DNA from: Mustelus asterias
Lineage: Eukaryota
Direction: 5' to 3'
NCBI RefSeq assembly: GCF_964213995.1
Contig: NW_027590143.1
Span: 868,001 to 932,000, forward strand
Length of the DNA stretch: 64,000 nt
Program-made: the position numbers and the translations under genes
Notes under the pieces: model-generated
What the model was told of the DNA's origin: nothing
What the model saw: only the letters and a program-made list of their open reading frames with translations
Database searches by the model: none
Shown: piece by piece, positions 28,938 through 40,619 of the stretch
Layout of the letters: each line of letters begins with the position of its first letter
How positions within the stretch are numbered: the stretch's first letter is position 1

Positions 28938-29402
28938 ATGGGAATCCTTGTTTTCACCCTGTGTATCTGTTTACCCGTGAGTATCGATCACATTAACCCA
29001 CATCCTGTGGATTGAATAAAGTGCTGCCCCAGTCCATCCCAATTGCAGGCACAGCCTAGGATTTTAACGCCGTTGTATGGTTCGGCTCTGGTGGCCCAAT
29101 AAACTCTCTGTGTTTAATTTCCAGGATGTTTCAGTCAGTCAGTGACACAGAGCCCGGCAGCGGTGATCAGGAAGGAGTGTCAGTCTCCCACCATCATCTG
29201 TGTTTTCTCTGGAGTTTATGAGTTCGAAAATGGCCATTTCTTTAGAAAAACCCCGACCGGGACATCCAGGGAGCGGATCTCCAGCGGAGCGAGATTTGTT
29301 GTCTCGGTGAACAAAGCAGAAAAGACATTTTCACTTGAAAATCGGGATTTGAGAGTTGAAGACACTGCAAAGCTCAGTGCTGGTACTACACACATGGGAT
29401 AC
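28938..29402 (+). pseudogene. NAR-TCR V (IgNAR-like V), probably germline V-D joined; leader 28938-28976, V exon 29125-29402
   Basis: QSVTQSPAAVIRKECQSPTIICVF..FRKTPTGTSRERISSGARFVVSVNKAEKTFSLENRDLRVEDTA has the VNAR layout (short FR2-CDR2 region, ERIS-x-G-x-RF..VN..K-x-FSL) and a non-canonical FR1 Cys; an apparent ~13-nt deletion removes TYY; leader ends in phase 0. Confidence 0.85.
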
Positions 29403-29430
29403 CGCAGTGGAAGAGAGAAGAACAAATAGC
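29403..29430 (+). other. RSS with 12-bp spacer (heptamer mutated)
   Basis: CGCAGTG-GAAGAGAGAAGA-ACAAATAGC. Confidence 0.7.
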
Positions 29431-29606
29431 TCATGGCAATCGAAGAAGTAATGCCCAGCAATTCCCAAGTTCGGTAACTTGACCTTTCGGGTTGATGTTA
29501 CTCCCACTTCAATTTGGTTTAAATTCATTGTAAATTCCTCCCATCAGTTATAATTCTTCAAGATTTTTCGCCGTTAATAAGAATCTTCCATCTCTGCCTC
29601 TGTTCC

Positions 29607-32378
29607 AACAAAGAACAATGCAGCTCAGGAACAGGCCCTTCGGCCCTCCAAGACCGCGCCGCTCCATGGTCCAAACTACACCATTCTTTTGTATCCCTCC
29701 ATTCCCACTCCGTTCATGTGGCTATCGAGATAAGTCTTAAACGTTCCCAGTGTGTCCGCCTCCACCACCTTGCCCGACAGCGCATTCCAGGCCCCCACCA
29801 CCCTCTGTGTAAAATACGTCCTCCTGATATCCGTATTAAACCTCCCATCCATCCCCCGCAGCCCCCCCCCCCCCCTCACCTTGAATCTATGACCCCTCGT
29901 GAACGTCACCACCGACCTGGGAAAAAGCATCCCACCGTTCACCCTATCTATTCGTTTCATAATTTTATACACCTCTATTAGGTCACCCCTCATCCTCCGT
30001 CTTTCCAGTGAGAACAACCCCAGTTTACCCAATCGCTCCTCATAACTAAGCCCTTCCATACCAGGCAATATCCTGGTAAACCACCTCTGCACTCTCTCTA
30101 AAGCCTCCACGTCCTTCTGGTAGTGTGGCGACCAGAACTGGGCGCAGTATTCCAAATACGGCCGAACCAATGTTCTGTACAACTGCAACATCAGACCCCA
30201 ACTTTTATACTCTATGCCGCAAGCATGCCATATGCCTTATTCACTACCTTCTCCACCTGTGACGTCACCTTCAAGGATCTGTGGACTTGCACACCCAGGT
30301 CCCTTTGCGTATCTACACCCTTGATGGTTCTGTCATTTATCGTCCAGCTCCCCCCTACGCTAGTTCGGCAAAATGCATCACTTCGCATTCATCTGGATTG
30401 AACTCCATCTGCCATTTCTTTTCTCAAATTTCCAGCCTATCTAGATCCTTCTGCAGCCTCTGACAATGTTCCTCACTATCTGCAAGTCCAGCCATTTTCG
30501 TGTCGTCCACAAACTTACTGATCACCCCAGTTACACCTTCTTCCAGATCGTTTATATAGATCACAAACAGCAGAGGTCTCAACACAGAGCCCTGCGGAAC
30601 ACCACTCGTCACAGGCATCCAGCCGGAAAAAGACCCTTCCACTACCACCCTCTGTCTTCTGTGACCAAGCTAGTTCTCCACGCATTCAGCCACACCCCCC
30701 TTTATCCCATGAGATCCAACCTTTTTCACCAGCCTGCCATGAGGGACTTTGTCAAACGCTTTCCTAAAGTCCATATAGACGACATCCACGGCCCTTCCCT
30801 CGTCAACCATTCTAGTCATTTCTTCAAAAAACTCCACCAGGTTAGTGAGGCATGACCTCCCTCTCACAAAACCATGCTGACTATCGTTAATGAGTTTATT
30901 TCTTTCTAAATGCGCATACATTCTATCTCTAAGAATCCTCTCCAAAAACTTCCCTACTACGGACGTCAAGCTCACCGGCCTATAATTTTCCGGGTTATCC
31001 TTCCTACCCTTCTTAAATAACGGGACCACATTAGCTATCCTCCAATCCTCTGGGACCTCACCTGTGTCCAGTGACGAGACAAAGATTTGCGTCAGAGGCC
31101 CAGCGATTCCATCTCTCGTCTCCCTGAGCAGCCTTGGATAGATTCCATCAGGCCCTGGGGATTTGTCAGTCTTAATATTCGCTAAAAAATCCTAACGCTT
31201 CATCCCTTGTACTGGAGATTTTCGCTAACGGGTCAGCACTCCCCTCCGAGACACTCCCAGTCAACACATCCCTCTCCTTTGTGAATACCGACGCAAAGTA
31301 TTCATTTAGGATCTCCCCTACTTCTTTGGGCTCTAATTCCCCACTTTTGTCCCTGAGAGGTCCGATTTTTATCCCTGACAACCCTTTTGTTCCTAACGTA
31401 TGAATAAAATGCCTTGGGATTCTCTTTAGTCCTGTCTGCCAAGGACATTTCGTGACCCATATTTGCCCTTCTAATTCCTCGTTTGAGTTCTTTCCTACTT
31501 TCTTTGTATTCCTCCAGAGCTCCTTCCGTTTTTAACTGCCTGGACCTAACATACGTCTCTCTTTTCTTTTTGACCAGTCCCTCAATTTCCCTGGTTATCC
31601 ACGGTTCTCGAATCCTACCCTTCCTATCCTTCTTTTTTACAGGCACATGTCTATCCTGCAGCCCTAACAACTGTTCCTTAAAAGACTCCCACATGCCAGA
31701 TGTGGATTTACCCTCAAACAGCCTCTCCCAATCAACAGCTGCCAGTTTCTGCCTAATCCCACTAAAGTTAGCCTTCCCCCAATCCAACACCTTACCCTTG
31801 GGACACCACTCATCCTTTTCCATCACTATCCTAAAGCTAACAGAATTGTGGTCACTGTTTGCCACATGTTTCCCTACCGAAACTTTGAAGACCTGACCGG
31901 GCTTATTCCCCAGTATCAGGTCCAGTATAGCCCCCTCTCTAGTCGGGCTATCTACCTATTGTTCCAAAGAACCCTCCTGTACGCATTTTACAAATTCCTC
32001 CCCATTCAGAGTCCCAGCCCTACGCGATTTCCAGTCTATACCAGGGAAATTGAAGTCTCCCACTACAACAACCCTATTTTTCCTGCACCTATCCATTATC
32101 TCCTGACATATCCGTTCTTCCACTTCCCTTGGGCTGTTGGGGAGCCTGTAGTACACCCCCAACATAGTGACTGCGCCCTTCCTGTTTCTGAGCTCCACCC
32201 ACAGTGACTCGTTACACGACCCCTCTGAATTGCCCTCCCGCCACCGCTGTAATATGCTCTCCAACTAATACTGCTCCTCCCCCACCTCTTTTGGCCCCTC
32301 CCCTGTCTCGCCTAAAACACTTGTCCCCCGGAATATTCAGCTGCCACTCCTGTCCCTCTTTCAACCAAGTCTCTGTTC
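29607..32378 (-). mobile_element. 5'-truncated CR1 inserted between NAR V and NAR J
   Basis: Fragmented APE/RT ORFs; flanking direct repeat CTCTGTTCC at 29598-29606 and 32371-32379. Confidence 0.93.
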
Positions 32379-32536
32379 CTGGGCTATTTTCCCAGGAGCT
32401 CAGCAAGTCACAAGGCACCGTTTGATTCAATGAGGTTTTTTTTAAACAATCAAGTTCATTATTGATCTAAATTCCCTGAATAATTGAGAAACGCTGACAG
32501 TCCGGTAATGGTTGCCCGGTAGTTTGAGGTGTCAGT

Positions 32537-32626
32537 CATTCCTGTGCTGGGCAGACTGGGAGCTCTGTCACTGTGGGGTGAATGGAGATTTTCAGATGGG
32601 TCTGAGACGGTAGACTGTCACAGCCC
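32537..32626 (+). pseudogene. NAR-TCR J segment (32576-32626) with upstream 23-RSS
   Basis: CATTCCTGT-23-CACTGTG then GEWRFSDGSETV[frameshift]TVTA C|GTAAGT, resembling the NAR J motif DG-x-GTVLTV. Confidence 0.75.
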
Positions 32627-37118: not shown

Positions 37119-39311
37119 ATTCTTGCACAATCAGTGACTAACACTAATTATATCCTACCTGATTTTTATTTCCATCCGATAGTCGATCATTTCTGCTTTG
37201 GCAGAATTGTGAAAACTTTAAATTGCATACTCTTCCACATATTGAACACTGACGGTGGATAAATCGGTTTGCATTACATTTTCTCGATTTCGAAAACATG
37301 GGATTGTGCTCATTGAAGCTTAATCAGTTCCTCAAGGATTGGTTGTGTCGAGGCTGAGGATGCTGAACCGTTCCATAGATTCTATTCTTGAATACTAATG
37401 GAAACAATGGATTTTGGAATAGAGCACGCAGTTCTCATTAAGGTAGATGATCAGAACGAAACTTCCTGAATTGGACAGCGGGTCCCCAAAATGGATCGGT
37501 CTACCATGTTTCTATTTCTTATGTATCTTATTATCAGCTTACATTTCTTACATTCCTGAGAAAATAAATAATCAACAATGTGTATGGATATCGAAAGTTC
37601 AGGATCGCTTTGCCATTTGTCTCTTACAGACCGGTAAGACATGAAAAAACAGCAGAGAAATATTTAACATTGTGTTTTAGTTTCTAGGAGCTCCATGTGC
37701 AGAAACTGATCCTTCAGTGGAGTGAAGTTTTTAATTAATTCATTTGTGTGACATGGGTGTCGCTGCTTGGCCAACATTTATTGTGCATCCCTGTTCGCCC
37801 TTGAAATGAGAGGCTTGCTCGTCCATTTCAGAGAGCAGTTAAGAGTCCACCACATTGCTGTGATTCTAGAGTCACATATAGGCCAGACAGGGTAAGAACG
37901 CCATATTTCCTTGCTTAAAGGACATTAGTGAACCATATGGAATTTGACAGCAATCGAGAATGGCTTCATGATCAGCAGTAGATTATTAATTCCAGGTTTT
38001 ATTTTTATTGAAGTCAAATTCTACCAGCTGCCGAGGCAGGATTCAAACCTGGGTCCCCAGAGCAAGGAGACGTTTACACATGAAATTATGAGCAGAACAG
38101 ATAGAAATATTCGGGTATGTTTACACGGAGACACATCAGAATGTATAGGTCGCTGTTTGGAGAAACGGCGTGATGAATTTATGGCAAGCTTGAAAAATAT
38201 GGGCGGGAGAGAGGAATAAATAGACACACAGCTCAGGATGTAAATTGTTATTTCCTGTTCGAGAGGAGAAGGGGCAAGAACATGCTTCGGCCAGCTGGGC
38301 CCAGTGGCCTATTCGTTTTAAGTGGAAAGTGTAGAATGTAAAACTTTGAGACAATTCTGTTCGGAAAGGACAATCAGCCAATGTACTAAAGGGATTGAAA
38401 TTCTCACATACCCTGAAGACAGTGCCCAGTGAGTAACAGTAACACCACTGCGGAAATTGAACAGGCTGAACCCAACCGACAACTGCAAGAAATTTGTACA
38501 AGTTCTCATGACGGTTGGAAACCACTAAGAACAGGCAGGAAACAACTCAGATGCAGAAATAGAACGAAACCAACTTGCAAATATTTCTAATAGAAGTAAA
38601 ACGGTAGAATCGATGGACGGAAATAGACAAATAGCAGACATTAACTTGCAGTGTTGAACTGCGGCCAAAGGTCGATCATTGACCCACGGATATACATTGT
38701 CAGTTTGGATTAATAGATGCGGACGAATATCTCTGCCCCGTGCTGAACCTGGATACATACAGGGACATAAAACTGCTGATTGTCCTTTGAGCAATGAAAC
38801 GTAGACAGCAAATTATTATGTGAGGAGAAGAGTGAACTTTATGATTTCGTTTCCTGGTTCGTATTTCGCCAATATATTTATTGGCACCTTTCTAATAAAA
38901 ATAGAATCATACTCCGCAACAAAACACAATTCTGTCAATAGAGACAATAATTTGAAGGTGCTGCCAATGTACCCATTCGGCCTTCTTTGGTCCCCTTGGC
39001 ACTGGAATATTGTCCTGTCCCAGAAGTTCTCCCTTCCACCGCCCCCCCGCCCTCCCCCAATTACCATTTGAAAGTCAATGTTAAATCAGCTCCCAGCACC
39101 ACCCTTTTCGCTGTTCACTTCAGGTGACTGCAATTCTCTGTGAAAAAAGGTCTGAAAATCTGCCACTCTTGTTTATTTCCAATAATCAATGCTTTTTGAA
39201 ACAAATTCAGTTAAACAAATTCCCGCAACAGACAGGTATTCACCCGATTGAAAAGTTTTCCCGGGGTAAACAGTGGCTAAAGAAACAATTCATTTTATTT
39301 CTATCCTGCAG

Positions 39312-39617
39312 ATTCCAGCTCAACTGTGTCACCGAGTTCACTTCTCCAAACGTCTGCCGCAGGTGACACGGTTACTTTAAGCTGTGAATATTCAGGGAAC
39401 TGTCAATATACAGTACACTGGTACCGTCAATCCCCAGGACAGGCTCCGAAATACCTCCTTCAGACACACACTTCAGGAGAGGATAATAAGAAACAGGTTG
39501 CCGGGGACGGAATTTCTGTTTATACACTTTCGTCAGTCAAAATCAACCGGTTAGAGATCTTCAAACTACAATTGAGCGACTCCGCTGTGTATTACTGTGA
39601 ACTGAGTGAGCGCACAG
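39312..39617 (+). CDS. NAR-TCR supporting TCR-delta V exon, open frame, CDR1 Cys
   Basis: Acceptor CCTGCAG|; SSTVSPSSLLQTSAAGDTVTLSCEYSGNCQYTVHWYRQ..LSDSAVYYCELSERT; phase compatible with the J donor at 32627. Confidence 0.88.
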
Positions 39618-39717
39618 CACACTGATACAGAACACGGAGAGATTTGTTCAAAAACCTGAACATGGTGAGAATTACAGACACGGTGATGCAGAACACGAAG
39701 AGAGCTGTACAAAAACC
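39618..39717 (+). other. Two tandem 23-RSSs (61-bp period)
   Basis: CACACTG-23-TCAAAAACC (39618-39656) and CACGGTG-23-ACAAAAACC (39679-39717). Confidence 0.9.
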
Positions 39718-39763
39718 TGAACATGGTTCGGGTTACAGATTCTTGTACTTCTCACCATGTTCA

Positions 39764-40108
39764 GGTTTCTGTACAGCTCTTACCGTGTTCTGTATCACTG
39801 TGCTGTGCGCCTACTCAGTGCACAGTAATACACAGCGGAGTCACTGAGTGGCAGTTTGGAGATCGTTAACCGGCTGATTTTTTCAAGGGGATCGACAGAA
39901 GCAGAAATTCTCCCCCCGGTAGCGTTTTCTTTGCTCGCCTCGCCTGATGTGTGTCTCTTAAGCAGGTATTTTGGGGTCTGTCTTGGGGAGTGACGGTACC
40001 AGTGGAGTGCGTGTTGTCAAAATCCCGGATATTCAAAGTTTAAAGTAATGGTGTCTTTAGCAGTAGAGGTTTGGAGAGATGGATTCTGTGACACAGATAA
40101 ACCAGATT
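39764..40108 (-). pseudogene. Second, inverted supporting V-delta pseudogene with RSS 39802-39764
   Basis: SVSQNPSLQTSTAKDTITLNFEYPGF*QHALHWYR..LSDSAVYYCALSRRT; first Cys to Phe, CDR1 Cys to TGA; CACAGTG-23-ACAGAAACC. Confidence 0.9.
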
Positions 40109-40619
40109 CTGCAGAACCTATAAAATAATACAAAATATTTCTGTGATGCTTTTACCTGCCTTGCATGTTAGTTTTCCCGGGGAAACATAATCGCGTCCAT
40201 AGCTGGCCATTTTGCTGTAATTGTTTCATTGAAGGGTGTTCGACATTTATTCACTGTAGTTGGGGAGACGGCGGCATAAAGGTATTATCACTGGATTAGA
40301 AATCCAGAGGTTTAGTAATCCAAGTAACAATCTGGGGACACGGCTATGAATCAGAGAGGCATTGATGATAGGAGCAGGAGGAGACCATTTGGCTCTTCGA
40401 GCATGCTCTGCCATTCATTACGGTCATGGCTGATCATCCACTCAGCCTAATCCTGCTTTTTTCCCCACAACATTTGATCCCATTCGCCCCACGTGCTTTA
40501 GTCAGCCGCCTCTTGAATATATTCAATGTTTTGTCAGAAACGCCCCATATAGTTCTAAATCAGGATGATTTGTGGTGCAATTTCCATACGCCTACTCTCC
40601 TTGTCCTTCTAGAATATAG

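What the first reader, a model, noticed from the sequence alone, without database searches (positions are those of the whole stretch)
29361..29430. NAR V ends in a long germline CDR3 and a 12-bp RSS: probable germline-joined V-D
Seen: every other V here ends roughly 8-16 nt after the second Cys and has a 22-24-bp spacer, but this V continues 34 nt (KAQCWYYTHGI, including another Cys) and is followed by CGCAGTG-12-ACAAATAGC. The partner J has a 23 spacer, satisfying 12/23, and no free D is visible in the ~340 bp of non-CR1 sequence between them. Established: germline-joined segments occur in shark Ig clusters. Inference: a RAG-mediated germline V-D join was fixed in a T-cell receptor cassette, leaving a single V(D)-J step.
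Basis: partly seen in the sequence, partly recalled or inferred. Interest (0 to 1): 0.8.

Follow-up and report, generated by a model that had tools for sequence, protein, structure and literature searches.

The report
Pre-fused shark T-cell receptor segments
This is a dead copy of a large family of shark T-cell receptor gene cassettes that are inherited with two of their three DNA pieces already fused, likely by the immune recombinase acting in germ cells, so intact copies would need only one cut-and-join to finish their antibody-like tip domain.

Summary
The 12-spacer signal and the 34-nt tail are real. The signal and everything from it to the J are homologous to the 3' side of the D in split NAR-TCR cassettes of the same genome (V-22 / 12-D-12 / 22-23-J), so V and D are fused here. 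The fusion is old and inherited: 40 of 63 cassettes seen carry it, they form one group, and 15 look intact with dN/dS about 0.3. RAG origin is inferred (about 0.7); a plain deletion is not excluded because the extra bases begin with CA/CACA. Expression is untested. Partial VD-J joins are known in shark Ig; I found no report for NAR-TCR, but three key papers were not held. The scan noted this family before on other pieces of this genome, and similar joins in other genomes.

The parts
28938..28976 (+). Leader exon of the NAR-TCR V; 39 nt, ends in phase 0 instead of phase 1 (intact paralogs: 43 nt), so it would splice out of frame
29125..29368 (+). NAR-type V exon, FR1 to FR3 (A-B loop Cys kept, no WYRK Trp); 13-nt deletion at 29368/29369 removes the YYC codons
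   Evidence: intact paralog closest to VNAR structures
29369..29392 (+). V-derived part of the tail (22 nt by this genome's split V genes, 24 nt by models from other sharks and rays)
29391..29402 (+). Junction plus 3' remnant of the D (10-12 nt, depending on where V is taken to end)
29403..29430 (+). 12-spacer signal, homologous to the D 3' signal of split cassettes; heptamer mutated to CGCAGTG
29431..29606 (+). 5' part of the D-J interval, ending in the first copy of a 9-bp target-site duplication (29598-29606)
29607..32370 (-).
32371..32536 (+). Second target-site copy (32371-32379) and 3' part of the D-J interval
32537..32575 (+). 23-spacer signal of the NAR J (nonamer 4 mismatches from consensus, heptamer intact)
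32576..32626 (+). NAR J segment with a 2-nt deletion not shared by its two closest copies
39290..39717 (+). Supporting V-delta (open frame, Cys in CDR1) with two stacked 23-spacer signals at 39618 and 39679; partner exon of the cassette

Best explanation
The window holds a dead copy of an old, amplified family of NAR-TCR cassettes in which V and D are fused in inherited DNA, likely by one RAG cut-and-join in a germ cell, so that intact copies would need only one V(D)-to-J join. Shown: the ancestral layout is V-22 / 12-D-12 / 22-23-J; about 400 bp holding the V signal, the V-D spacer, the D 5' signal and the 5' part of D are missing; the V end is complete and 8-12 nt of D plus its 3' signal remain. 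Inferred: RAG paired V-22 with the D's 5' 12-signal in the germ line, the D end was trimmed, and 0-4 bases were added. The fused cassette was then duplicated many times. Predicted: in a T cell the intact copies join 12-signal to the J's 23-signal, giving a tip domain whose CDR3 has a fixed aromatic first half (KAQ[H/Y]WYY[T/A][H/Q][G/R]T) and one variable junction, spliced to a supporting V-delta that rearranges on its own.
For: Split cassettes with a free D. The flank behind the 12-signal beats all 200 shuffles against the D 3' flank in 14 of 15 pairs and against the V-signal flank in 0 of 15; whole interval collinear. 40 of 63 cassettes fused, tail 34 nt in 38 and 33 nt in 2. D-J tree: fused 19 rows versus split 17 rows on either side of one branch, 100/100. 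15 of 40 intact, 11 distinct sequences, all 15 keep CAC, against 6 of 25 broken ones. dS 0.28, dN 0.07 between intact L007 and L018, Fisher p 0.0015. Leader intron kept, so not a retrocopy. Both ends of the missing piece fall at the places RAG cuts, in a span of 391-429 bp with a D of 13-19 nt. 12 of 51 models from other species read into the heptamer, all after exactly 8 codons, one ending WYYT as here. Five split-class cassettes carry recent RAG-type joins, one a V-D join of the same shape. Germline RAG joins are described for shark Ig (PMC2193156, PMC4279169).
Against: No P nucleotides at the old junction. If V ended at 22 nt, the next bases CACA equal the start of the consensus heptamer, whereas PMC2193156 notes that no signal bases remain in its germline joints. 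No split cassette with this group's D flank was found (35 of 35 hits fused), so the parent D cannot be compared. The leader-plus-V tree does not resolve the fused group as one side of a branch (7% of bootstrap trees; not rejected, p-AU 0.41). No fused cassette shows a join to J: 0 of 15 intact against 5 of 21 split-class with a recent join (p 0.06). The CAC tally rests on few lineages, not 40 independent events. Tail conservation is significant in one pair (33/34 versus 113/153, p 0.002, one member has a broken leader) and marginal in a pair of intact copies (30/34 versus 108/153, p 0.05).
Confidence: 0.68

Rival explanations
1. V and D were fused by an ordinary germline deletion, not by RAG: the left break fell 2-4 nt inside the V heptamer or used a TGGG shared by the V spacer and the D. 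The product happened to keep an open frame and a usable 12-signal, and was then amplified.
For: The extra bases start CA or CACA right after the V end. Split V spacers begin ATGGG and split D segments contain TGGG. Non-RAG deletions occur in these cassettes: L053 lost its V end and signal, and the window lost 13 nt.
Against: One deletion would have to end inside a 13-19-nt D after about 400 bp and begin within 4 nt of the V border. The microhomology version needs a second 4-nt loss. With a 24-nt V end only CA is left to explain. The recent join L050 has the same shape.
Confidence: 0.2
2. The fusion is real but the family is not used: it spread as a passenger in segmental duplications of the locus, and the open frames are left over or kept by gene conversion from split V genes.
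For: 25 of 40 copies are broken. No fused cassette is found joined to J. The J nonamer in the family is 3-4 mismatches from consensus.
Against: Two intact subfamilies at dS 0.23-0.28 both keep leader phase, frame, CAC heptamer, open J and, in the two loci fetched far enough (L051, L065), an open supporting V; dN/dS 0.26-0.33. The D remnant and its signal cannot be restored from split V genes.
Confidence: 0.07
3. The 12-signal is a shortened V signal, or the D-less layout is ancestral, and no D was ever joined.
For: By geometry, 10 nt plus heptamer plus 12 equals heptamer plus 22, so a 22-spacer reading fits some copies.
Against: The flank matches the D 3' flank and never the V-signal flank. 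Split V ends are seen in models from orectolobiform and lamniform sharks and a skate.
Confidence: 0.03
4. The join is a somatic T-cell rearrangement that was captured in the assembly.
For: The assembly holds other joins that could be somatic.
Against: 40 copies with one junction, diverged to 71-86% in the flank; a LINE inserted afterwards and shared by three copies; contigs of public runs hold the fused form.
Confidence: 0.01

Closest known systems
NAR-TCR, the doubly rearranging TCR-delta of cartilaginous fish (Criscitiello 2006, not held; seen as described in passages of PMC1845163, PMC12227049, PMC5931798)
   Same: NAR-type V with leader, A-B loop Cys and no WYRK Trp, its own J, and a downstream supporting V-delta with a CDR1 Cys.
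   Different: The NAR V and D are fused in inherited DNA; the passages I read describe two somatic VDJ rearrangements. The window copy is a pseudogene.
Partly germline-joined (VD-J) shark IgH clusters and germline-joined nurse shark NS4 light chains (PMC4279169 passages; PMC2193156 introduction, methods and passages)
   Same: Same kind of product: segments joined in the germ line, intron kept, split and joined members side by side.
   Different: Here it is in a T-cell receptor locus; the junction has no P bases, so RAG origin is less directly shown than for NS4.
Marsupial TCR-mu V-mu-j (PMC7615758 passages)
   Same: Germline-joined segments in a TCR chain with two V domains.
   Different: V-mu-j is the fully joined membrane-proximal domain, thought to be retroposed; here the tip domain is half joined, keeps its intron and would still rearrange.
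Pre-joined TRD V-J of the newt Pleurodeles waltl (PMC12698447 passages)
   Same: Inherited join in a TCR-delta locus, expressed in that species.
   Different: A single complete V-J in one haplotype; here a V-D join shared by about 40 loci, expression untested.

Membership tests
NAR-TCR cassette | V most similar to IgNAR V | tested here: met
   Best solved-structure matches of an intact-frame paralog are VNAR domains, E 1e-18
NAR-TCR cassette | Leader, Cys in the A-B loop, no WYRK Trp (PMC1845163) | tested here: met
   Window and paralog translations; the leader is present but out of phase in the window
NAR-TCR cassette | Downstream leaderless supporting V-delta with a CDR1 Cys | tested here: met
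   39290-39619 open with CDR1 Cys; gene models splice the NAR J straight to it. Absence of a leader exon was not searched separately.
NAR-TCR cassette | In a TCR-delta locus with D, J and C downstream | tested here: met
   12-D-23, J segments and C exons on the same contig, opposite strand, about 40-70 kb beyond the cassette
NAR-TCR cassette | Expressed as a two-V chain after two rearrangements | not testable with these tools
   No RNA holder listed; the window copy cannot encode it
Germline-joined antigen-receptor segments | Join present in inherited DNA | tested here: met
   40 diverged copies, later LINE insertion shared by three, contigs of public runs
Germline-joined antigen-receptor segments | Split relatives show which signals were removed | tested here: met
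RAG-made coding joint | Both signals fully removed, no heptamer bases left | tested here: inconclusive
   CA or CACA follows the V end; it fits N bases, D bases or heptamer remnant
RAG-made coding joint | P nucleotides or other trace of a hairpin | tested here: inconclusive
   None visible at the old junction; P bases are not always present and the parent D is missing
Retroposed joined V (TCR-mu type) | Leader intron lost | tested here: not met
   Intron 28977-29124 present

The most novel reading that the evidence does not exclude
RAG keeps rearranging this shark's TCR-delta locus in the germ line. Besides the old V-D fusion, the recent V-D, D-J, hybrid and signal joints in split cassettes are also inherited, and the fused family gives a semi-invariant class of gamma-delta T cells whose tip domain has a fixed, selected CDR3 half.
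Probability: 0.3. Interest if true: 0.75.

Novelty: new variant of a known kind. Interest (0 to 1): 0.5.

Why it matters
[quoted passage not shown] A half-joined family that makes up most NAR-TCR cassettes of a shark, with intact members under purifying selection, would show that germ-cell recombination has also shaped a T-cell receptor locus. It gives a direct test of what the NAR-TCR tip domain binds, since half of its CDR3 is fixed. The window copy itself is only a fossil of this family.

Tried and rejected
Expression: no RNA holder listed; not evidence either way. JGI metagenome scan with the V protein: 161 pattern matches, none confirmed. Criscitiello 2006, Ott 2021 and Criscitiello 2010 were not held, so I cannot say whether they mention joined NAR-TCR cassettes. 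The one supplementary file of PMC3964593 held as text had no hit for NAR-TCR, NARTCR or germline-joined; bioRxiv supplements are closed. Protein tree of 49 V domains: 91 columns, mostly unresolved, no date for the join. Tandem Repeats Finder did not list the stacked signals in the window. Look-ups of earlier findings by sequence and by relatives returned nothing. An RSS information-content score was not computed because no shark model was at hand. Rejected: the extra Cys as a feature (private, out of frame); a free D in the interval (collinear with paralogs); retroposition (intron kept). No structure was predicted, as a finished domain needs a junction that is not in the genome.

Full report
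What is in the window. A leader (28938-28976), an intron, a V exon (29125-29402), a 12-spacer signal (29403-29430), a J with a 23-spacer signal (32537-32626) and, 6.7 kb further on, a supporting V-delta. A paralog with an intact V frame has VNAR structures as its best matches and shows the marks that PMC1845163 gives for NAR-TCR V (passages). The closest database protein (97%) is labelled Mustelus asterias. The 12-spacer site is the only one of its quality in the window; 20 of 20 Markov simulations gave none. The signal consensus used for the scans is recalled.

The TGC taken as the second Cys is made of Thr-Ala codons: 13 nt with the YYC codons are deleted relative to paralogs, and KAQCWYYTHGI is out of frame. 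The leader ends in phase 0, not 1. The heptamer is CGCAGTG. A LINE with a 9-bp target-site duplication splits the D-J interval, and the J lacks 2 nt. Two copies about 97% identical share the leader defect, the deletion, the heptamer change and the LINE, but not the J deletion or the extra Cys. The copy is therefore a real pseudogene; the J deletion alone could be an assembly error.

The family. Searches of the own genome (the DNA searches score at most 40 candidates, so counts are lower bounds, and uncollapsed haplotypes may inflate them) gave 63 cassettes. 23 belong to a split class, V-22 / 12-D-12 / 22-23-J, or derive from it; 40 have V, then 10-12 nt, then a 12-spacer signal. Of the 51 matches, 49 were loci already held; 2 on other contigs were not fetched. 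Split V ends run 22-24 nt past Cys. Of 51 models labelled with other species, 12 read through into the heptamer, all after 8 codons, and one ends WYYT like the fused family; models favour open read-through, so this sample is biased. None of the 51 has the fused tail. An unnamed protein, P0001, has the fused tail on a different V (79% identity), so the form exists outside this assembly.

The 12-signal is the D's. From the heptamer to the J the fused and split cassettes align end to end. With the signal itself left out, the next 170 nt beat all 200 shuffles against the D 3' flank in 14 of 15 pairs and against the V-signal flank in 0 of 15. The remnant resembles the TGGGA-containing 3' ends of split D segments. 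About 400 bp with both inner signals are gone.

One old event. The tail is 34 nt in 38 copies and 33 nt in 2. In the D-J tree (36 distinct rows; 10 fused loci dropped because the J expression failed, and split loci without an intact interval left out) fused and split lie on either side of a 100/100 branch. The leader-plus-V tree of 51 rows neither shows nor rejects one group. Flanks of fused subfamilies are 71-86% identical. All 35 hits to a fused-type query were fused, so no direct parent is seen. In public contigs one record of run X1 bridges the junction, and fused-type tails appear as loose ends in all four runs, which come from at most three samples of one study.

Signs of function in paralogs. 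By my count from the rows, for one heptamer, 15 of 40 have a phase-1 leader, an acceptor and an open V with YYC; they are 11 distinct sequences in two subfamilies. All 15 keep CAC, against 6 of 25 broken copies, though these are few lineages. Their J segments are open. Between the subfamilies dS is 0.23-0.28 and dN/dS 0.26-0.33 (p 0.0015 for L007 versus L018). Against this, none of the 15 is joined to J in the assembly, whereas 5 of 21 split-class cassettes carry a recent join (p 0.06). Expression was not testable.

Mechanism. Shown: the deletion starts at the V coding border, within 0-4 nt, and ends inside the D. Inferred: this is what RAG does with a 22/12 pair, and germ-cell RAG joins are described for shark Ig, including partial VD-J clusters (PMC2193156, first part and passages; PMC4279169 passages). 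The doubt is that the extra bases begin CA or CACA, as a heptamer does, that there are no P bases, and that TGGG occurs both in the V spacer and in D. I put RAG origin with working paralogs at 0.68 and a plain deletion at 0.2.

Recent joins. L050 is V plus C plus the last 9 nt of D; L045, L055 and L056 are D-J joins, the last two with extra bases; L058 holds an inversion with a hybrid joint and a perfect signal joint to a TCR-delta D signal; L081 holds another signal joint. A joint at the same coordinates as L050 is in one contig of X1 (depth 3.5, 30 letters on the short side, bases between not known), and the L045 junction is in one contig of X3 (depth 14.2) but not listed for X1, X2 or X4. 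A rough one-copy depth in X3 is 8 (96.5 over 12 copies; my inference). This hints that some recent joins are constitutional, but the runs may include the assembled animal and somatic origin is not excluded.

Comparison with what is known. It works like a partly joined shark IgH cluster and is a member of the NAR-TCR family on every feature testable here. [quoted passage not shown] Searches (listings only) and passages of PMC12227049, PMC5931798 and PMC6795676 showed no report of joined NAR-TCR segments, but the primary NAR-TCR papers were not held. Earlier notes of this scan describe the same family on other pieces of this genome and similar joins in other genomes; I read them after reaching my view and did not use them as support.

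Verdict. A real, inherited V-D fusion in a T-cell receptor cassette; a new variant of a known kind; this copy is dead. Interest 0.5.

Noticed in passing
L057:3050-3100; L063:2560-2620; L055:2100-2170; L056:2100-2170; L058:5690-6500; L081:1770-1840: Recent RAG-type products in the assembly: one V-D join, three D-J joins, an inversion with hybrid and signal joints, and a second signal joint. Two have matching joints in public contigs. Germline or somatic origin is open.
   Followed up: partly
G000 contigs C71, C90, C106, C110, C111, C115, C123, C154, C173, C181, C973: The flank of a TCR-delta D (12-D-23) has 14 matches, most about 24-40 kb from a split NAR cassette; on C111 J segments and C exons follow, and on C90 J segments. 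The TCR-delta locus looks duplicated as whole D-J-C units.
   Followed up: partly
window 39618-39717 (+) and 39802 (-); L051:4027-4310; L063:7218-7500: Supporting V-delta genes are followed by stacks of two to five 23-spacer signals at a 61-bp period.
   Followed up: no
window 39744-40127 (-): A second, inverted supporting V with a stop codon faces the first; no NAR V or J partner for it was found in the window, unlike the facing pair in L051.
   Followed up: partly
L049:1942 onward and L048: A split cassette whose D is interrupted by an insertion of about 5 kb at its 3' end.
   Followed up: no
L032-L046 versus L004-L026: Split-class V genes vary strongly in CDR1 length and sequence, whereas fused-class V genes share one short CDR1; P0001 pairs a split-type CDR1 with the fused tail.
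   Followed up: no
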